A stretch of 64,000 nucleotides of DNA from the human T2T-CHM13v2.0 reference genome, Homo sapiens (GCF_009914755.1 NC_060929.1), one strand, 5' to 3'. Shown: positions 31,533 to 46,630, numbered from the stretch's first letter. Translations and numbers: made by a program. Notes: generated by a model not told the origin, from the sequence alone.

Positions 31533-33131
31533 CGATATGGTTTGAATTTGTATCTGCCCAAATCTCATGTCAAATTGTAACCCCCATTGTTGGAGGAGGG
31601 GCCTGGTGGGAGGTGATTGAATCATGGAGGTGGATTTCCCCCTTGCAGTTCTTGTGATAGTAAGTTCTCATGAGATCTGATTGTTTAAAAGTGTGTAGCA
31701 CCTCCCCCTTCACTCTCTTCCTCCTGTTCTGGCCGTGTAAGATGTGCCAGCCTCCTCTTCACCTTCTGCCATGATTGTAAGTTTCCTGAGGCCTCCGCAG
31801 TCATGCTTCCTGTACAGCCTGCAGAACCGTGAGCCAATTAAACCTCTTTTCTTTAACCAGTTTCAGGTATTTCTTTGTAGCAGTGAGAAAACAGACTAAT
31901 GCAGAAAGTTGGTACCGAGAGTAGGGTATTGCTATAAAGATAGCTGAAAATGTGGAAGTGACTTTGGAACTGGGTAATGGGTAGAGGTTGGAACAGTTTG
32001 GAGGGCTCAAAAGAAGACAGGAAGATGAGGAAAAGTTTGGAACTTCCTAGAGACTTGTTAAATTATTTTGACCAAAATGCTGACAGTGATATGAATAATG
32101 AAGTCTAGGCTGAGGAGGTCTCAGATGGAGATAAGGAGCTTACTGAGAACTGGAGTAAAGGTCACTCTTGCGATGCTTTAGCAAAGAGACTGGCAGCATT
32201 GTGCCCCTGCTCTAGGAATCTGTGGAACTTTGAACTTGAAAGAGATGATTTAGAGTATTTGGTGGAAGAAATTTCCAGGCAGCAAAACTTTCAACATGTG
32301 GCCTGGCTGCTTCTAGCAGTATATGCTCATATGTGCAAGCAAAGAGATCTGAAACTGGAACTTATATTTAAAAGGGAAGCAGAGCATAAAAGTTTGGAAA
32401 ATTTGCACCCTGATCATGTGGTAGAAAAGAAAAACCCATTTTCTGGGGAGGAATTCAAGCCGGCTGCAGAAATTTGCATAAGTAAAGAGGAGCAGAATGT
32501 TTAATAGCCAAGACACTGGGGAAAATGGCTAGAAGGCATTTCAGAGATCTTCACAGCAGCCCCTCCCATTACAGGACACTACTCCCTGTGTTTCAGCCAC
32601 TCCAGCTCCAGCCATGGCTAAAAGGGCCCCAGATATATCTTAAGCTGCTGCTCCAGAGGCTGCAAGCTGTAAGCCTTGGCAGCTTCCACATGGTGTTAAG
32701 CCTGGGGTTGCGCAGAGAACAAGAGTTGAGGCTTGGGAGCCTCCACCTAGATTTCAGGGGATGTATGGAAACGTCTGGATGTCCAGGCAGAAGTCTGCAG
32801 GACTTGTTGCAGGAGGGACCTGGTTGGGGTGATTGGATCATGGGGGTAGATTTCCCCCTTGCTGTTCTCATGATAGTGAGTAAATTCTCATGAGATCTGG
32901 TTGTTTAAAAATCTGTCACAATTCCCCCTTTACTCTTTTTCTTCTGCTCCAGCCATGTAAGATGTGCCAGCATCCCCTTTGCCTTCTGCCATGATTGTAA
33001 GTTTCCTGAGGTCTCCCCAGTCTTGCTTCCTGTATAGCATGTGGAACTGTGAGCCAATTAAACCTCCTTTCATTATAAGTTACCCAGTTTCAGGTTTTTT
33101 TTTTATAGCAGTGCAAGAATGTACTTATACA
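31533..33131 (+). mobile_element. MSTA-type MaLR: LTR (31533-31903), partial internal region, 5'-truncated second LTR
   Basis: MSTA LTR consensus twice; MST/THE1 internal ORF relic (CPCSRNLWNFELERDDLEYLVEEISRQQ). Confidence 0.85.
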
Positions 33132-35855: not shown

Positions 35856-36184
<329 letters not shown>

Positions 36185-38156
36185 GGATTTTTTTAAAGCT
36201 ATGATAGATAAGCTCAAGGACTTAAAGGAAAAGATGGACATAATGTGTGGGAAGACATCTAAACAGAGTAATAAAAACTATAAAAAAAGACCCAAGAAGC
36301 TGAATGCATCACAAGCAGCATAAACATAACTATGTTGTACATTACATTCAAATTGTTCAAAACTAAATATAAAATCTTAAAAACAGGTGGAGGAAAAAGT
36401 AACACATCATGCAGAGGGAAAGAATAATGAGTATGATTACTTCTTAGGAAAAGCAATCTAAACCTGAAAACAGTGGGACAGCACCTTTAAGGTGCTAGGG
36501 AATAAAAGTTAAACTCCTATATCCAGCAAAAATATTCTTTGAAAATTGGAGGTGAAATGGAGGACATTTTCAGATTTAAAACAAAATGGTAGAGGTAATT
36601 TGTTACAGACAGGCTTGCACTATAGTAATTGTTAAAGAAAGTTTTTGAGGCTGAAGGAAAATGTCGAAAATGATTGTAAATTAGTCCTAGAGTAAAAGCT
36701 GCTCTAGGTCCCCCTTTACAGACCTTAACAACAAAGGTTCAAAAGAATCCAACTGTTTGTTGCTCAAAAAACTTAACTGCATGCCAGAACAAAGTTCAGT
36801 ACTCATTAAAGGAATAAAACAAAATCTTTCACCCAACAATACAAAATTCACAATCAAAAGTTAACAGGCATCCAAAGAAGCAGGGAAATAGGACCCATAA
36901 TCAGAGAAAAATCAATCATATGAACAGATCCAAAATGAAAGAAATAATAGAATTAGTAGATAAGAACCCTAAAACCTTATTATAACTCTTATAAATATGC
37001 TCATAGATATAAAGGAAAACATAAGCATAATGAGAAAAATGGAAAATAATTTTAAAAACCCAAATAAACGGAATAATGGTGTTTTGTATATAATGGTACA
37101 AATAGGTTAAAAGCAAAAGGATTGAAAAAATATACTGTGCCAGCTAATGAAAAGAAAGCTGAAGTGACCATATTAATACCAGACAGAAGACATCAGAACT
37201 AGGGAAAATGAAACATTTTATGATGAGAAGAGGTCAATTTAATGCAAGGACACAAAAATTCTAAATGTAAAACTTCCAAATATATGAGGCAGAAACCTAT
37301 GGAACAGAATGGAGAAATACACAAATCTGCAAGGTCAATTGGAGATCTCAATACCCCTCTCAGTAGAGAAAAGAAGCAGATGAAATATCAGTAAGTATAT
37401 GGAAAATTTTAACAACACTGTTAACCAAATCAACCTGATTGACATTTATAGGACATTCCATTGAACGATAGCAGAATACACTTTATTTTCAAGTGCATGT
37501 GGAACATTCTGTAAGATAGACCAACATTCTGGACTGTAAAACAAGTGTCAATAAATTTATAAGGAGTAAAGTCATAGATAATGTATTCTGTGACTACACC
37601 AGAATCAGTAGCAGAAAAGTATCCGGAAAATCCCCAAATAATTGAAAAATTAAGCAGCATACTTCTAAATATTACATGGATCAAAAAAGGAATCACAAGG
37701 GAAATTAGAAAAAATACTTTAAATGAATCAAAAATATAGCATGTAAAAATATGTGGGGTGCAGCTAGATAATGCTTAGAGAGATACGGTAGAAAAGAAAC
37801 CAATCAGTATAATTTGCCACATTAACAGAATAAAAAAGAAATATCATATGAACACCAATAGATACAGAAAACGCATTTCAATTTAATAGTCTTTCGTGGT
37901 AAAAACCCTCAGCATAACTGATGGAGGAATATTAATTCCTGAATAATTCAGTCCAAAATCCGTTAGGTGTGGCTGAGTGAGGAAGGCATCCACAAAAACA
38001 AGCTGTGACAGCCTGGTGGGGGATTGGAGCCCAAGTAAGGAATCTATGAGTTTATACTGATACAAGAAAATGGGGGGGGAAATGGAGAAAGAGCAAAGCC
38101 CCTTATACTAGAACCTTAACTAATATAAAAGGAATAATGGAACTAGAAAATTACTA

Positions 38157-39132: not shown

Positions 39133-39321
39133 TATTTGATAGCTGTCATAATAATAATTCATTCAGGTAAGAAACAGTAGATGCTAAAACTAATGGAAGA
39201 AAGTTTGATGAAGTATGAGATAGTTGTATGGTCTCTGCATCTCTCCCTCAAATTATTAATTAATTGTAAAGAAAAATTTTTTGGTGAAGCTAGGAGATAC
39301 ACCTTTATCAAGAGATTGAAG

Positions 39322-39657
<336 letters not shown>

Positions 39658-41008
39658 CTAGTCGTGAGGAAATATTACCCAAATTTTGGGAGGTATTCTG
39701 CAAAATAATGGTCTGTACTTTTCAAAATTATCAGTCATGAAAGTCAAGGAAAATCTGAGCAACTATTTCAGGCTGAAAGAAAGTAAAGAGACATAACCAC
39801 CAAATACAAAGTGTAATTCTGAACTGAATCCTTTTGCTCTAAAGGACGTACTGGGACAAGTGAATTAGGCTGTAGAAAAAGAAAAAAACAATCAGTATAA
39901 TTTGCCACAGTAATAGAATAAAGAAGAAAAATCATATGAGCATCAATAGATACAGAAAAAGCTTTTCAATTTAATACTCATTCATGATAAAAACTCTCAG
40001 CATAACTAATGGATGAATAGTTATTCATTCCTGATTAATTCAGTCCAAAAGCCATTAGGTAGGACTGAGTGAGGAAGGCATCCACAGAAGTACCCTAGGG
40101 ATGAATAGATGATAGAATTAGTAGATAAGAACCTTAAAATCTTATTATAAATCTTATAACTATGTTCATAGATATAAATAAAAACATAAAAATAAAAACA
40201 TGAGAAAAATGGAGGACAATAACCAAAAAACCCTAAATAAAGTAAAAGGAATAACAGTGTTTTTATATATAATAGTACAGATGGGTTTAAAACAAAAGGA
40301 TGGAAAAAATATACCGTGCCAGCTAATGAAAAGAATGCTGAAGTGACCATATTAATATAAGACAGAAGACATCAGAAAAAATAGGTGATTATATGATATT
40401 TGAATGTCTGTTCATTGTTGGTCTTTTAGGTCTTATAAGATGATGGTCATTTTCTACTACTTTAAGGGAGCATATTAAATTTTTTTCAACAGACTTTAAA
40501 CTTTATTTTGTAGATCAGCTTCGGGTTTATAGCAAAATTGAGCAGAAAGTACAGTTTCTGTATATTCCCTGCCTGTACACACACAACCTCCTCTACTATC
40601 AGCATCTAACTTTTTGTAGATACTTTGCCTCATTCAAATAATCCAGGGTAATCTTTCTATTTTAAAGTCAAGTGATTGACACCCCAGTTCCATCTGTAAT
40701 GTTAATTCTCTTTTGCTGTGTAATGTAACATTCACAAATTCAAGGGATTAGAATGTGGACATCTTTGGAGAACCATTATTTTATATGCCACAGCTGAGTT
40801 AATGGTAACTTATCACATTTTGGAACAACTGGCAAAACTTGAATGGGATTTGTGGACCATGTGGTAATAATATATCAGTATCAGTTTCCTGATTTTTGTT
40901 GTTGAAAATGTCCTTGTTTTGTAGGAAATACTGGTGTTGGGACATCAGATCAGCAACTTACTCTCATGTGGTTTGGGGGGCAGGAAAGCTATGTATACTG
41001 TAGTTCTG

Positions 41009-43258
41009 TGTATTACTCCATTTTCACACTGCTGTTAAAGACATACCCAAGACTGGGCAATTTACAAAAGAAAGAGGTTTAATGGACTTACAGTTCCACG
41101 TGGCTGGGGAGGCCTCACAATCATGGTGGAAGGTGAAAGTCATGTCTCACATGGTGGCAAATGAGAGCTTGTGCAGGAAAATTCCCCCTTATAATGACCA
41201 TCAGATCTCGTGAGACTTACTATCATGAGAACAGCACAGGAAAGACCTGCCCCCGTGATTCAATTATCTCCCACCTGGTTTCTCCCACAACACATGGGGA
41301 TTCAAGATGAGATTTGAGTGGAGACACAGCCAAACCATATGATTCCACCCCTGGCCCCTCCCAAATCTCATGTCCTCACATTTCAAAACCAATCATGCCT
41401 TCCCAACAGTCCCCCAAAGTCTTATTTTAGCATTAATTCAGAAGTCCACAGTCCAGAGTCTTACCCAAGATAAGGCAAGTCCCTTCTGCCTATGCGCCTG
41501 TAAACTCAAAAGCAAGTTAGTTACTTCTTAGATACAATGGGGATACAGGCATTGGGCAAATACAGCCATTCCAAATGGGAGAAATTGGCCAAAACAAAGG
41601 GGCTACAGGCCCCGTGCAAGTCCGAAATTCAGTGGGGCAGGTGTATCTTAAAGCTCCAGAATGATCTCCTTTGACTCCATGTCTCACATCCAGGTCACTC
41701 TGATGCAAGAGGTGGGCTTCCATGGCCTTGGGCAGCTCCACTTCTGGCTTTGCAGGGTATAGCCTCCTTCCTGGCTGTTTTCACAGGCTGGTGTTGAGTG
41801 CCTGCAGTTTTTCCAGGTGCACAGTGCAAGCTGTCAGTGGATCTATTATTCTGGGGGATCTACCAGTCTGGAGGACAGTGGCTGTCTTCTCACAGCTCCA
41901 CTAGGCAGTCCCCTCCATAGGAACTCTGTGGGGTTTCAACCCCACATTTCCCTTCCATATTGCCCTAGCAGAGGTTTTCCATAAGGGCCCCACCCCTGCA
42001 GCAAACATCTGCCTGGGCATCCAGGTGTTTCCATACACCCTCTGAAATCTAGGCAGAGGTTCCCAAACCTCATTTCTTGACTTCTGTGCACCTGCAGGCT
42101 CAACACCACGTGGAAGCTGCCAAGGCTTCGGGCTTCCACCCTTTGAAGCAACAGGCCAAGCTGTACCTTGGCTTCTTTTAGTTGTGGCTGGGACACAGGG
42201 CACCAAGTCCCTAGACCGCACACAGCAGAGGGACCCTGGGCCTGGCCCACGAAACTATTTTTTCTTCCTAAACCTCTGGGCTTGTGATGGGAGGGGCTGT
42301 CACAAAGGTCTCTGACATGCCCCTGGAGACATTTTCCTTATTGTCTTGGTAATTAACATTTGGTTCCTTGTTACTTATGCAAATTTCTGCAGCTGGCTTG
42401 AATTCCTCCTCAGAAAATGGGATTTTATTTTCTATCACATTGTCAAGCTGCAAATTTTCCAAACTTTTATGCTGTTTCCCTTTTAATACTGCATCCCTTT
42501 AACAGCACCCAAGTCACCGCTTGAATGCTTTACTGCTTAGAAATTTCTTTCACCAGATACCCTAAATCATCTCTCTCAAGTTCAAAGGTCCACACATTCC
42601 TAGGGCAGGGGCAAAATGCTGCCAGTTTCTTTGCTAAAATATAACAAAAGTCACCTTTGCCCCAGTTCCCAACAAGTTCCTTATCTCCATCTGAGACCAC
42701 CTCAACCTGGATTTCATTGTCCATATCCTCATCAGCATTTTGGTCAACGCCATTCAACAAATCTCTAGGGAGTTCCAAACTTTCCCATATTTTCCTCTCT
42801 TCTGAGCCTTCTAAACTGTTCCATCCTCTGCCTGTTACCCAGTTCCAAAGTCGCTTTCACATTTTCGGATAACTTTTCAGCAGCACTCCACTCCTGGTAC
42901 CAATTTACTGTATGAGTCCGTTTTCACACTGCTAATAAAGATATACCTGAGACTGGACAATTTACAAAAGAAAGGGTTTAATGGACTACAGTTCCACCTG
43001 GCTTGGGAGGCCTCACAATCATGGTGGAAGGTAAGGAGGCGCAAGTCACATCTTACATGGACAGCAACAGGCAAAGAGAGCTTGTGCGGGGAAACTCCTT
43101 CTTATAAAACCATCAGGTCTCGTGAGACTTACTCACTGTCACAAGAACAGCATGGGAAAGACCTGTCCCCATGATTCAATTACCTTCAACTGGGTACCTC
43201 CTGCAACATGTGGAAATTCAAGATGAGATTTGGGTGGAGACAAAGACAAACCAAATCA
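41009..43258 (-). mobile_element. Full-length THE1 (THE1B-like) MaLR: LTR 41009-41342, internal region, LTR 42909-43258
   Basis: Two LTRs, ~1.57-kb internal region, 5-bp TSD TTCTG/TTCTA. Confidence 0.93.
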
Positions 43259-43548
43259 TTCTACCTTTCTATAAACTTGCAATTTTTAAGGATAAAAAAC
43301 ATTTTTGATGCTTACAGAGATAAAATTCATTTATTTGAAAAATCTGCATACCTGATCTCCTAATGATGCTGAATAAAGGAGGTAGATAGTATATCATTTT
43401 TGTAAATTAATTAAACAGTATTCTTCTATATTTTGGATAGCATGTAAAAATATCACTCATTTTGGATGTTTTTCTTTTTGTTCCCTCATTTTGGGTAAGA
43501 TTGCTTATGCCTTTTTCTCAGAACCAACACTGGTGCTTATTAAAGTAA

Positions 43549-43731
<183 letters not shown>

Positions 43732-44775
43732 TAGGTGTTTATATGATATTTGAATTTCTGTTCATTTTCAGTCTTTTAGGTCTGTAAGTTGATGGTTGTT
43801 TTCTACTATAAGTTTAGGGGAGCATATTAAATTTTTTTCAATAGACTTTAGACTTTATTTTTTTAGAGCAGTTTTGGGTTTATAGCAAAATTGGGCAGAA
43901 AGTACTGAGCTTCCATTTTCTCCCTACCCCCACGCACACACAGCCTCCTCCACTATGAACATTTGATTTTTTGTGGATACTATTTGTCAGTTAAATAGAA
44001 TGATCCCATGAAAGACTTAGGGTTATGTTCCATTCTCTTGAGTAATTTCTGAACAGTTGCTGAATTGAAAGCACATAATCACTCAAATACAGGTTGAATG
44101 AGTAAAAAATTCTAGTGTCATGTTTAAGAATGGGTGAGATGAGAAGCAGACAAGTAGGAAAGAATGATAAATTGTTCCTTTCAACCATTATCATTCTGTT
44201 AGAGGCAGGTATCATTTTCTAATGGATATGGATTTGGGGATTAGACTACCTTAGATTCAAGTCTCTGTCTTTGTTGAGCAAATTACTTGACTATTCAGCT
44301 TCTTCTCCTCCCTTTTATTTAACTAGCTAAGTAATTCCTTTATTTAACCAATAATGCACATCTACTATGTGCTGGAGGCACTATACTGGCTTCTCAAGCA
44401 GGTTTTCATCATTGCCATTTTAACACACTCAAGTATCTCTCATACCCTGGGATTTCATTCCACTCCAGTTACTACCTGTCTCCTTCTTCTCCTTTATAGC
44501 CAGTCTCTCAAAAGAGTTGTTGATACTGTCTCCATTTCTTCACCTCCTCTTCACTCCAATTGCAGTCCCATTCGTCCTTTGAAACACCTCTGACTAAAGT
44601 TACTAATAACTCTGTTTTTAATTAGGGTAATGCTGCTGCTATACAAAGTAGACCTAAGAGTGAGCCTCTGTTTATTTCATTTGTAAAGTAGGCATTCATT
44701 TTCACTGTGTGTATCTTAGATGTTGTCAAGGTTGAGCTAATGCATATAAAATGCTTAACATGTAGTAAGAGTTCA

Positions 44776-45287
44776 TGTATTAGTCTTCTATGACTGCTAT
44801 AAGAAACCACAAACTTAGTGCTATAAACAATACAAATTTATTATCTTACACTTATGTAGTTTAGAAGTCTGAATTGGGTCTCACTGGGCTAAAATCAAGA
44901 TGTTAGTAGGGTTACGTTCCTTTCTGGAGGCTCTAAGGGAGAATATGTTTCCTTGTTCTTTCCGTCTTTTAGAGGCCACCCATATTTTTTAGATCATGCC
45001 CTCTTACTCTGTCTTCAAAGCAAGCAATAGTGGGCAGAGTTCTTCTCATATCAAATCACTGTGACCTCTTCTTCTCTCTTCTTCTGCCTTCCTCTCTCAC
45101 ATTAAAGGACCCATGTGATTACATTTGCCCCATCCAAATAATCCAGGATAGTCTATTTTAAGGTCAAATGATTAACACCCTAATTCCATCTGTAATCTTA
45201 ATTCTCTTTTGCTGTGCAATGTAACATTCACAAATTCAAGGGATTAAAATGTGGACATCTTGGAGGACCATTGTTCCATGTACCATA
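44776..45287 (-). mobile_element. MLT1 (C/D-like) solo LTR
   Basis: TGTATTAGTC...GGGTCTCACTGGGCTAAAATCAAG...TTCTGGAGGCTCTAAGGGAGAAT. Confidence 0.8.
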
Positions 45288-45604
45288 GCTAAGTAAATGC
45301 TAGTTTATTACTTTTTATTTGAAAATTTCTTTTTCTAGACCTCCATGATACAATACTGTTCTCTCTTTCTATCACAGCTACATACTACTTCATTCACCCC
45401 ATCAATAAAGGTTGGAAGTCTCATTAGGCTCAGTCCTGTATCTTCTCCTTTTTTTTGCTCTGTATTTTCTTCCTAGGTAATCACATTCTTATCCATTGCT
45501 CAAACTACTCTGTGTTCATAGATGACTCACAGATTTATGTCATATCTCCAAACCAGACCTCTGTTTCCAGACCCATTTACCCAGACCTATTTACCCATTT
45601 CTGA

Positions 45605-46630
<1,026 letters not shown>

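What the first reader, a model, noticed from the sequence alone, without database searches (positions are those of the whole stretch)
39872..40820. Four-piece patchwork insertion in RAD50 intron 2, copied from nearby DNA in scrambled order
Seen: this ~950-bp block is four consecutive same-strand copies, roughly 80-90% identical by eye, of short segments elsewhere in the gene. A 39872-~40088 matches 37788-~37995; B ~40101-40377 matches ~36935-37198; C ~40374-40627 matches 43723-43986 (RAD50 exon 3/intron 3 junction); D ~40624-40820 matches 45123-~45316. Source order is 37.8k, 36.9k, 43.7k, 45.1k: non-colinear and from both sides of the insertion point. The B/C junction has microhomology AGAA(C) and the C/D junction has (A)TTTG. 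The copies include locus-specific junctions (L1-to-flank in A, MLT1 LTR end plus flank in D, unique intron in C), so they are not independent transposon insertions. The block interrupts an L1MC-like 3'UTR, which reads ...GGACGTACTGGGACAA before it and resumes ACATTTTGGAACAACTGGC... after it. Inference: a fixed, ancient germline serial template-switch event (FoSTeS/MMBIR or Pol-theta templated insertion), here inside a double-strand-break repair gene.
Basis: partly seen in the sequence, partly recalled or inferred. Interest (0 to 1): 0.8.

Follow-up and report, generated by a model that had tools for sequence, protein, structure and literature searches.

The report
Ancient four-piece templated insertion in RAD50
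A 960-base stretch inside an intron of the human RAD50 gene is an old, harmless copy-and-paste scar stitched together from four nearby pieces of DNA, a tidy germline example of a kind of repair or replication error already known from patients and tumours.

Summary
- A' 39872/80-40089 from 37790-37997
- B' 40101-40377 from 36935-37198
- C' 40374-40627 from 43723-43986
- D' 40621-40821 from 45120-45316

Mismatches are 10-15% per piece, 114 of 927 pooled, and homogeneous (p=0.38). In the whole T2T genome the local sources are by far the best matches. The copies share locus-specific repeat-to-flank junctions and indels, so they are not independent transposon insertions.

- The block is flanked by an 8-bp duplication of the host L1 target (TGGGACAA / TGGAACAA).
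- Two untraceable fillers (12 and 11 nt) sit at the first two junctions.
- There is no poly(A) tail and no L1-endonuclease site.

B/C joins at AGAAC. C/D joins at about 14 nt of near-identity.

Best reading (0.6): one DNA-templated serial template-switch event of MMBIR/FoSTeS type, a small local germline "cycle of templated insertions", roughly 35-70 Myr old and neutral. RNA-templated or stepwise origins are not excluded. No non-human genomes were available, so orthologue dating was not done. This is a new example of a known kind, and its position in a repair gene looks coincidental.

The parts
39640..39859 (+). Host repeat, left part: the 3' region of an old L1-type element.
   Evidence: 163 candidate copies genome-wide, 40 scored, at 69-81% identity; colinear with 12 intact copies up to ...TGGGACAA.
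39852..39859 (+). Left copy of the 8-bp target duplication, TGGGACAA.
   Evidence: 11 of 12 intact family copies carry this motif once, 1 has it deleted, and 0 carry it twice. In the window it occurs on both sides of the block.
39860..39871 (+). Filler 1, about 12 nt (up to 20 nt if A' starts at 39880). Its origin was not found.
   Evidence: no match in the 64-kb window on either strand at 4 or fewer mismatches; no significant similarity to the downstream host sequence (P=0.88).
39872..40089 (+). Piece A', a copy of 37790-37997. It consists of an L1 reverse-transcriptase-region fragment plus 86 nt of non-L1 flank.
   Evidence: 22 mismatches in 206; it shares the L1-to-non-L1 junction and two indels with the source, and is sister to the source against 10 of 10 outgroup copies.
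40090..40100 (+). Filler 2, 11 nt (GTACCCTAGGG). Its origin was not found.
   Evidence: only chance-level hits at 2 mismatches; no convincing match to the target site.
40101..40377 (+). Piece B', a copy of 36935-37198. It is made of two repeat-derived parts that lie next to each other only at this locus.
   Evidence: 27 mismatches in 261; 37 of 37 candidates were scored; the local source gave 270 bits over 265 nt, and the next best gave 78 bits over 88 nt.
40374..40627 (+). Piece C', a copy of 43723-43986. It covers the last 8 nt of RAD50 exon 3, the start of intron 3 and a repeat fragment. The exon-3 GT donor is lost in the copy.
   Evidence: the local source gave 232 bits over 243 nt; the next best gave 97 bits and covered only query 120-230. 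No other match covers query 1-102.
40621..40821 (+). Piece D', a copy of 45120-45316. It covers the last third of an LTR-type repeat plus about 31 nt of flank.
   Evidence: 26 mismatches in 196; the source LTR is complete at 44806-~45290. In the flank, 23 of 31 positions are identical between source and block, against a median of 33% for family copies. D' is sister to the source against 28 of 28 outgroups.
40821..40828 (+). Right copy of the 8-bp target duplication, TGGAACAA. It has one mismatch to the left copy.
40829..41000 (+). Host repeat, right part, resuming at ...CTGGCAAAACTTGAATGGG.
   Evidence: 15 candidates, all 15 scored, of which 14 are non-self matches; alignment.
36935..37198 (+). 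Source of B', in RAD50 intron 2.
37790..37997 (+). Source of A', in RAD50 intron 2. The L1 continues upstream of it to at least 37603.
43723..43986 (+). Source of C', spanning the RAD50 exon 3 / intron 3 junction. The exon ends at 43730 in the hub's table.
45120..45316 (+). Source of D', in RAD50 intron 3. It covers the 3' end of a complete LTR-type repeat (44806-~45290) plus flank.

Best explanation
This is one ancient germline copy-and-paste event, templated on DNA.

Proposed course of events (inferred):
1. A growing 3' DNA end left its template inside an old L1 3' region in RAD50 intron 2.
2. It primed at short homologies on four nearby stretches of the same strand, about 2.1 kb and 2.9 kb upstream and then 3.9 kb and 5.3 kb downstream.
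3. It copied only 200-277 nt from each.
4. It returned to the original template 8 nt behind the point of departure.

The result is an insertion of about 960 nt flanked by an 8-bp duplication. In current terms this is serial template switching of the MMBIR/FoSTeS type, or synthesis-dependent break repair with template jumps. It is a small, local, germline 'cycle of templated insertions'.

Shown:
- The four copies and their local origin.
- The direction of copying.
- The junction sequences.
- The target duplication.
- The similar divergence of the four pieces.

Inferred:
- That there was a single event.
- That the template was DNA.
- That a polymerase switched templates.
- The age, roughly 35-70 Myr.
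- That the insertion is neutral.
For: 1. Four same-strand local copies, E 1e-57 to 1e-76.

2. Across the whole genome the local sources are the best matches for every piece.
- 40 of 2186 candidates scored; local sources gave 278, 244, 242 and 214 bits, and the next best gave 118.
- 37 of 37 scored; 270 versus 78 bits.
- 40 of 385 scored; 232 versus 97 bits.
- Control: an ordinary repeat next door at 41009-41349 behaves the opposite way. All 39 non-self hits listed are distant copies at 83-88%, while its local twin is only 80% identical.

3. The copies share locus-specific features.
- D and D' run about 31 nt past the LTR end. There they are identical at 23 of 31 positions, against a median of 33% for family copies.
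- A and A' share an L1-to-non-L1 junction (76 of 86 identical beyond it, median 37% for outgroups) and two indels.
- In three-way comparisons the source and block group together against 28 of 28 outgroups for D and 10 of 10 for A.

4. The direction is source to block. The source LTR is complete, starting at a median of 44807 and ending at up to 45297 in 28 family alignments. The L1 continues upstream of source A. Source C is RAD50 exon 3.

5. The data fit one event. Mismatches are 22/206, 27/261, 39/264 and 26/196; chi2 3.09, p=0.38.

6. Junctions show AGAAC at B/C and about 14 nt of near-identity at C/D. The chance of 4 nt or more at a random junction is 0.016.

7. The strand returned to the host with an 8-bp duplication that 0 of 12 intact family copies carry twice. 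This matches the published definition of a 'cycle' (PMC7025897, passages read).

8. Microhomology of 2-5 bp, low-processivity synthesis with several switches and return to the original template are the stated features of MMBIR (PMC2621351, abstract and passages).

9. All sources lie within 8.4 kb of an 89-kb gene. If the templates were picked at random along the pre-mRNA, this would happen about 8e-5 of the time (my arithmetic from the hub table).
Against: - No orthologous sequence could be examined, so all-or-none arrival of the four pieces is untested.
- A+B (about 10.5%) are less diverged than C+D (about 14%). Fisher p is 0.051 at non-CpG sites, 0.11 at all sites, and 0.07 after trimming the junctions. 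This is a hint of two steps or of uneven mutation rates.
- Two of the five junctions (host/A' and A'/B') show 11-12-nt fillers of unknown origin instead of microhomology.
- All four templates are sense-strand pieces of one transcription unit, which an RNA template would also give.
- A target duplication of 5 bp or more is also a criterion of L1-mediated (class 1) templated insertions (PMC5110952).
- Nothing in the sequence proves that replication, rather than repair of a two-ended break, was the setting.
Confidence: 0.6

Rival explanations
1. RNA-templated patch. A reverse transcriptase, for example L1 ORF2p acting in trans, copied four fragments of unspliced RAD50 pre-mRNA while jumping between templates. 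The resulting cDNA filled a break in the intron.
For: All four pieces have the sense of RAD50 and lie within its transcription unit (hub table). C' carries an unspliced exon 3 / intron 3 junction. Templated insertions from intronic RNA with microhomology and non-templated nucleotides are described as class 2 TSIPs, and those with a target duplication as class 1 (PMC5110952, abstract and passages).
Against: There is no poly(A) tail, no polyadenylation signal at the 3' end of the block, and no TTTT/A-type site at either edge of the duplication. That fails class 1. An 8-bp duplication is present, which fails class 2 as defined. All templates lie within 4.6 kb of the insertion point, on both sides, rather than being spread over the 89-kb transcript. 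Three of the four templates are purely intronic and the fourth (C) is intronic apart from the last 8 nt of exon 3, so the RNA would be short-lived.
Confidence: 0.12
2. Two or more separate events at one spot, for example A'B' arriving at a different time from C'D'.
For: A+B are less diverged than C+D: 44/457 versus 64/458 at non-CpG sites, Fisher p=0.051; 49/467 versus 65/460 at all sites, p=0.11; p=0.07 after trimming the junctions.
Against: The four-way homogeneity test is not rejected, with p=0.38, 0.23 and 0.31. A second insertion would have had to land exactly at the edge of the first, at a 5-nt microhomology. Only one target duplication brackets the whole block.
Confidence: 0.12
3. The same templated synthesis, but started by a staggered break. 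One possibility is the footprint left when a cut-and-paste transposon with 8-bp target duplications excised, with the gap then filled from nearby templates.
For: The 8-bp duplication has no mobile element between its copies. Short unexplained fillers lie next to the left duplicate. That hAT-type elements make 8-bp duplications, and that excision gaps can be filled with nearby sequence, is recalled knowledge and comes from no call.
Against: No terminal inverted repeat remnant or transposon sequence is visible at either edge. A return 8 nt behind the departure point explains the duplication without any transposon.
Confidence: 0.06
4. Remnant of one colinear duplication of the 36.9-45.3 kb region, later eroded by deletions.
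For: All pieces are direct copies from one 8.4-kb interval.
Against: The order in the block is 37.8k, 36.9k, 43.7k, 45.1k, which is not colinear and is not a rotation of the colinear order. This reading would need at least three deletions plus a transposition. Two of the internal junctions sit at microhomologies, and the block is bracketed by an 8-bp duplication inside an otherwise intact host repeat.
Confidence: 0.04
5. Independent insertions of the same transposon families, resembling the 'sources' only through family membership.
For: Parts of A, B, C and D are repeat-derived. Two of 8 open frames from A-family copies match RVT_1 weakly, at 22.8 and 21.3 bits, below the 29.6 cut-off.
Against: The local sources are the best matches in the genome for all four pieces. 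Homology runs past the repeat ends into unique flank. The first ~100 nt of C' are unique sequence, including the end of an exon. The control repeat shows what true independent copies look like.
Confidence: 0.01

Closest known systems
[quoted passage not shown]
   Same: Several templates (2-7 in that paper, four here) are copied and strung together at one locus. The sources are kept. The string returns to the host and re-replicates a piece of it, here 8 bp, which is how the paper defines a 'cycle'. It is described there as a single copy-and-paste event.
   Different: Those are somatic events in tumours, usually with much larger segments and often from other chromosomes. Their local n-jumps mix inverted and direct joints. 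This one is germline, tens of millions of years old, with 200-277-nt templates all within 4.6 kb and all in direct orientation.
MMBIR / FoSTeS replicative template switching (PMC2621351, abstract and passages read)
   Same: Complex structure; junction microhomology of 2-5 bp (AGAAC here); low-processivity synthesis with several switches; final return to the original template.
   Different: That paper deals with switches over tens to hundreds of kb that cause copy-number variants in patients. Here the jumps are 1-6.5 kb and the product is a sub-kilobase neutral insertion. Two junctions carry fillers instead of microhomology.
Templated sequence insertion polymorphisms, classes 1 and 2 (PMC5110952, abstract and passages read)
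   Same: Heritable insertion of sequence templated elsewhere in the genome, including intronic sequence. It has a target duplication of 5 bp or more as in class 1, and microhomology plus non-templated nucleotides as in class 2.
   Different: There is no poly(A), no polyadenylation signal and no TTTT/A site, so it is not class 1. It has a target duplication, so it is not class 2. The templates are local rather than distant. There are four templates rather than one.
Short-range template switching in great-ape genomes (PMC7954356; only the search listing and start of the abstract were seen)
   Same: Germline template-switch errors to a nearby alternative template that became fixed in primate lineages.
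   Different: From what I saw of the abstract, that work concerns small-scale events that look like clusters of point changes and indels. It does not concern a 960-nt string of four 200-277-nt copies.

Membership tests
Cycle of templated insertions (PCAWG definition) | Two or more templates from distinct places strung together within one locus | tested here: met
   Four templates from 36.9k, 37.8k, 43.7k and 45.1k are joined at 39860-40821.
Cycle of templated insertions (PCAWG definition) | The string returns to the host and re-replicates a host segment (a cycle), rather than leaving a gap (a bridge) | tested here: met
   The 8-bp host motif is present on both sides of the block and only once in 11 of 12 intact family copies. 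No host bases are missing in that alignment.
Cycle of templated insertions (PCAWG definition) | Sources retained (copy gain, not cut-and-paste) | tested here: met
   All four sources are still in place, in native context.
MMBIR / FoSTeS | Microhomology of about 2-5 bp at breakpoint junctions | tested here: inconclusive
   Met at B/C (AGAAC) and C/D (about 14-nt near-identity). The D'/host junction shares 1-5 T's. The host/A' and A'/B' junctions have 12- and 11-nt fillers instead. About 12% later divergence blurs the exact junctions.
MMBIR / FoSTeS | Arises in one event during replication or repair of a broken fork | not testable with these tools
   A single event fits the homogeneous divergence (p=0.38), but A+B versus C+D gives p 0.05-0.11. 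Dependence on replication leaves no trace in the sequence.
Class 1 templated insertion / L1 ORF2p-mediated retrocopy (criteria from PMC5110952) | Target-site duplication of at least 5 bp | tested here: met
   8 bp, with one mismatch between the copies.
Class 1 templated insertion / L1 ORF2p-mediated retrocopy (criteria from PMC5110952) | Poly(A) tail with an upstream polyadenylation signal | tested here: not met
   The block ends ...GGTAACTTATCACATTTT directly before the right duplicate. There is no poly(T) at the left edge either. The last 30 nt of D' are copied from the source flank.
Class 1 templated insertion / L1 ORF2p-mediated retrocopy (criteria from PMC5110952) | Insertion at a TTTT/A-type endonuclease site | tested here: not met
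   The target reads GTAC|TGGGACAA|CTGG. Neither edge resembles TT|AAAA or its complement.
Class 2 templated insertion (RNA patch joined by end joining; PMC5110952) | No target duplication; microdeletion, microhomology or non-templated bases at the junctions; template from a distant region | tested here: not met
   A duplication is present, there is no deletion of host bases, and the templates are local. Fillers and microhomology are present.
Polymerase-theta end joining with templated insertion | Short inserts copied from sequence close to the break (sizes recalled, not from a call) | tested here: inconclusive
   The four tracts are 200-277 nt and come from 1.9-5.5 kb away, which is longer and farther than I recall for this pathway. 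The 11-12-nt fillers are of the right size, but no nearby template was found.
Tandem or segmental duplication | The copy is colinear with its source | tested here: not met
   The order is 37.8k, 36.9k, 43.7k, 45.1k, with 0.6-5.7 kb of source sequence skipped between pieces.

The most novel reading that the evidence does not exclude
The block records RNA-templated break repair in the germline. Under this reading a reverse transcriptase jumped four times along unspliced RAD50 pre-mRNA near the break, and the resulting cDNA patched the intron. That would explain why all four pieces are sense-strand fragments of a single transcription unit, including an unspliced exon-intron junction. A milder variant is DNA-templated switching that used the single-stranded non-template strand exposed by transcription of RAD50.
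Probability: 0.1. Interest if true: 0.6.

Novelty: new member of a known kind. Interest (0 to 1): 0.35.

Why it matters
It is a clean natural example showing that multi-template copy-and-paste errors also happen in the germline at sub-kilobase scale and can drift to fixation. Such errors are best known from tumours and genomic-disorder patients.

All five junctions, the target duplication and all four sources are still readable after tens of millions of years. The locus could therefore serve as a worked example, or as a positive control for genome-wide scans for such events.

It also shows that repeat annotation alone would misread this block as unrelated L1 and LTR fragments.

I found no sign that it affects RAD50. 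The copied exon-3 splice donor is dead in the copy, and the position inside a repair gene looks like coincidence.

Tried and rejected
- Templates for the two fillers: no match in the window for filler 1 at 4 or fewer mismatches, and only chance-level hits for filler 2.
- A longer, gapped target duplication reaching into filler 1: not significant against shuffles, P=0.23 and P=0.88. A brief return to the target site as the origin of filler 2 was also unconvincing.
- Naming the repeats with Pfam from the window's own open frames: 0 of 22 frames gave a meaningful hit; four had chance-level hits at E 0.03-0.1. Open frames from 8 A-family copies gave 2 weak RVT_1 hits below the curated cut-off.
- The direct repeat next to the block (41009-41349 versus 42909-43265, 80%) was tested as a possible fifth piece and rejected. 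It is an ordinary high-copy repeat whose distant copies match better, at 83-88%.
- Lineage-specific rates from the three-way counts were dropped. The outgroups for A were picked with the block as query and those for D with the source as query, which biases the counts in opposite directions.
- A RAD50 deep-intronic splicing paper (PMC11785915, whole text read) concerns intron 21 and is unrelated.
- A search for RAD50 + 'intron 2' + 'templated insertion' (listing only) showed no description of this block. Searches gave background papers only.
- No supplements were opened.

Full report
**What is there.** A BLASTN of window 39700-41000 against the whole window returned four strong non-self matches and one chance-level one (25 nt, E 5e-4). 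All four strong matches are on the plus strand:

| Block | Source | Identity |
|---|---|---|
| 39882-40089 | 37794-37997 | 86% |
| 40109-40377 | 36944-37198 | 83% |
| 40374-40640 | 43723-43997 | 81% |
| 40624-40821 | 45124-45316 | 84% |

E-values ran from 1e-57 to 1e-76. The repeat finder gave the same pairs in pieces. Gapped local alignment with flanks fixed the limits:

| Piece | Block | Source | Mismatches / aligned |
|---|---|---|---|
| A' | 39880-40089 | 37790-37997 | 22 / 206 |
| B' | 40101-40377 | 36935-37198 | 27 / 261 |
| C' | 40374-40640 | 43723-43997 | 39 / 264 |
| D' | 40621-40821 | 45120-45316 | 26 / 196 |

A' may start at 39872, because its start is A-rich and ambiguous.

**The copies are local copies, not repeat-family look-alikes.** I searched the whole T2T assembly with the block (40 of 2186 candidates scored). 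After the self match, the four local sources were the top hits at 278, 244, 242 and 214 bits. The next best hit scored 118 bits and covered only a repeat-derived core.
- With B' alone, all 37 of 37 candidates were scored. The local source gave 270 bits over 265 nt, against 78 bits over 88 nt for the runner-up.
- With C' alone (40 of 385 scored), the local source gave 232 bits against 97. No other match covered the first ~100 nt, which hold the end of RAD50 exon 3 and the start of intron 3.
- As a control, the repeat just downstream (41009-41349) has a local twin at only 80% identity. All 39 non-self hits listed for it (40 of 8460 scored) were distant copies at 83-88%. That is how independent insertions look, and the four pieces behave the opposite way.

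**Shared private features, and the direction of copying.** For D I fetched 28 family copies.
- In the source, the LTR-type repeat is complete. It starts at a median of 44807 and ends at a median of 45263, at most 45297. D' holds only its last third.
- Past the LTR end the family copies run into unrelated flanks. Source and block stay alike there, at 23 of 31 positions against a median of 33% for family copies.
- In three-way comparisons over 162 columns, source and block shared a state against the outgroup at a mean of 37 sites. The two alternative groupings had means of 9.9 and 6.5. This held for 28 of 28 outgroups.

For A I fetched ten family copies.
- They continue as L1 beyond the point where source and block both switch to the same non-L1 sequence. 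Source and block are identical at 76 of 86 positions there, against a median of 37% for outgroups.
- Source and block also share two indels.
- Source and block group together against 10 of 10 outgroups, with means of 15.7 versus 2.4 and 8.3.
- The L1 continues upstream of source A, whereas A' is cut off at the junction.

Source C is the real exon 3 / intron 3 boundary. So the block is the copy and the four flanking sites are the originals. The outgroups for A were chosen with the block as query and those for D with the source as query. The asymmetries between the last two counts are therefore ascertainment effects, and I did not use them.

**The insertion site.** The left flank (39640-39859) and right flank (40815-41010) each match a dispersed repeat family. 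Eighteen fetched loci match both flanks. I aligned 12 of them across the junction. I left out L046 and L051, which are the same places as L012 and L013, and L042, L043, L050 and L052, whose left matches stop well short of the junction or are very short.

In the alignment, 11 of 12 copies read through the junction with a single ...TGGGACAA-CTGGCAAAACTTGAATGG.... One copy has a deletion there, and none has the motif twice. In the window, TGGGACAA (39852-39859) ends the left flank and TGGAACAA (40821-40828) opens the right flank.

So the block sits between two copies of an 8-bp target sequence, and no host bases are lost. A longer, gapped duplication was tested and is not significant.

**Junctions**:

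| Junction | What is seen |
|---|---|
| Host / A' | 12-nt filler (39860-39871), no template found |
| A' / B' | 11-nt filler (40090-40100), no template found |
| B' / C' | 5-nt microhomology AGAAC in the two sources |
| C' / D' | ~14-nt near-identity, TGTGGATACTATTTG versus TGTGATTACATTTG |
| D' / host | 1-5 shared T's |

The chance of 4 nt or more of microhomology at a random junction is 0.016. There is no poly(A) or poly(T) at either end. The target GTAC|TGGGACAA|CTGG does not resemble an L1-endonuclease site.

**One event, and when.** Divergence is homogeneous across the four pieces:
- chi2 3.09, 3 df, p=0.38
- non-CpG sites only, p=0.23
- junctions trimmed, p=0.31

Against this, A+B are somewhat less diverged than C+D. 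At non-CpG sites the figures are 9.6% versus 14.0%, Fisher p=0.051. At all sites p=0.11, and with junctions trimmed p=0.07.

Pooled divergence is 114 of 927, or 12.3%. The Jukes-Cantor distance is 0.134, which is 0.067 per lineage. At assumed rates of 1.0-2.2e-9 per site per year this gives 30-67 Myr. The rates are general knowledge and come from no call.

By the same reasoning, the D pair has about a third of the divergence that separates the source LTR from other family copies (12% versus a median of 30%). So the event is much younger than the repeats it copied and interrupted. A polymorphism could not persist that long, so fixation is inferred, not shown.

**Mechanism.** These features fit serial template switching by a DNA polymerase with return to the original template:
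- four short tracts of similar length (210, 277, about 254 and about 201 nt)
- all in direct orientation and all within 4.6 kb of the insertion point, on both sides of it
- sources retained
- microhomology at some junctions and short fillers at others
- re-entry 8 nt behind the departure point

This is the MMBIR/FoSTeS model (PMC2621351). In the vocabulary of the cancer-genome survey it is a 'cycle of templated insertions' (PMC7025897).

The block fails the criteria for L1-mediated class 1 insertions, because it has no poly(A), no polyadenylation signal and no TTTT/A site. It also fails the criteria for class 2 patches, because it has a target duplication and local templates (PMC5110952).

An RNA template cannot be excluded, since all pieces are sense fragments of one transcription unit. 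However, the tight clustering around the insertion point, and the fact that three of the four templates are purely intronic and the fourth (C) is intronic apart from the last 8 nt of exon 3, argue for DNA.

The 8-bp duplication could instead reflect a staggered initiating break, for example a transposon excision site. I saw no transposon remnant.

**Consequences.** I see none.
- The block lies deep in intron 2.
- The copied exon-3 donor (AAA|GTAGGT in the source) reads AAAATAGGT in the copy and is dead. That is one change among 39, so it is no evidence of selection.
- The hub table lists no functional element here.
- The literature searches (listings) turned up no description of this block.
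- The one RAD50 deep-intron paper found concerns intron 21.
- That the host gene repairs double-strand breaks appears to be coincidence.

**Verdict.** It is a new, well-preserved example of a known mutational class. The orthologue test that would settle single versus stepwise origin, and the date, could not be run here.

Noticed in passing
window 40374-40390 versus 43723-43740: C' copied the RAD50 exon-3 5' splice site. The source reads AAA|GTAGGT and the copy reads AAAATAGGT, so the GT donor is gone from the intronic decoy. It is one change among 39 in the piece, so this may be chance.
   Followed up: partly
window 41009-41349 and 42909-43265 (also 33038-33131, minus strand): These are direct repeats at 80% identity, starting about 180 nt after the block. 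They are ordinary copies of a high-copy interspersed repeat: 8460 candidates genome-wide, with distant copies at 83-88%. They are not part of the event. The family was not named by any search.
   Followed up: yes
window 39308-39534 (minus), 45605-45910 (plus) and 35857-36180 (plus): These are Alu-like elements in opposite orientations. One lies about 325 nt upstream of the insertion point, one about 290 nt downstream of source D, and one about 750 nt upstream of source B. The inverted arms are 75% complementary. Inverted repeats can stall forks, but whether these were present when the event happened is unknown.
   Followed up: no
window 36190-36245 versus 36977-37032: A 56-nt stretch just after the Alu at 35857-36180 is 73% identical to the start of source B (family D7). 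This suggests two fragments of the same L1 region lie within 800 nt of each other.
   Followed up: no
window 39860-39871 and 40090-40100: The two fillers resemble each other loosely: both begin GT and contain TAGG, with 7 of 11 positions matching by eye. They are too short to test.
   Followed up: partly
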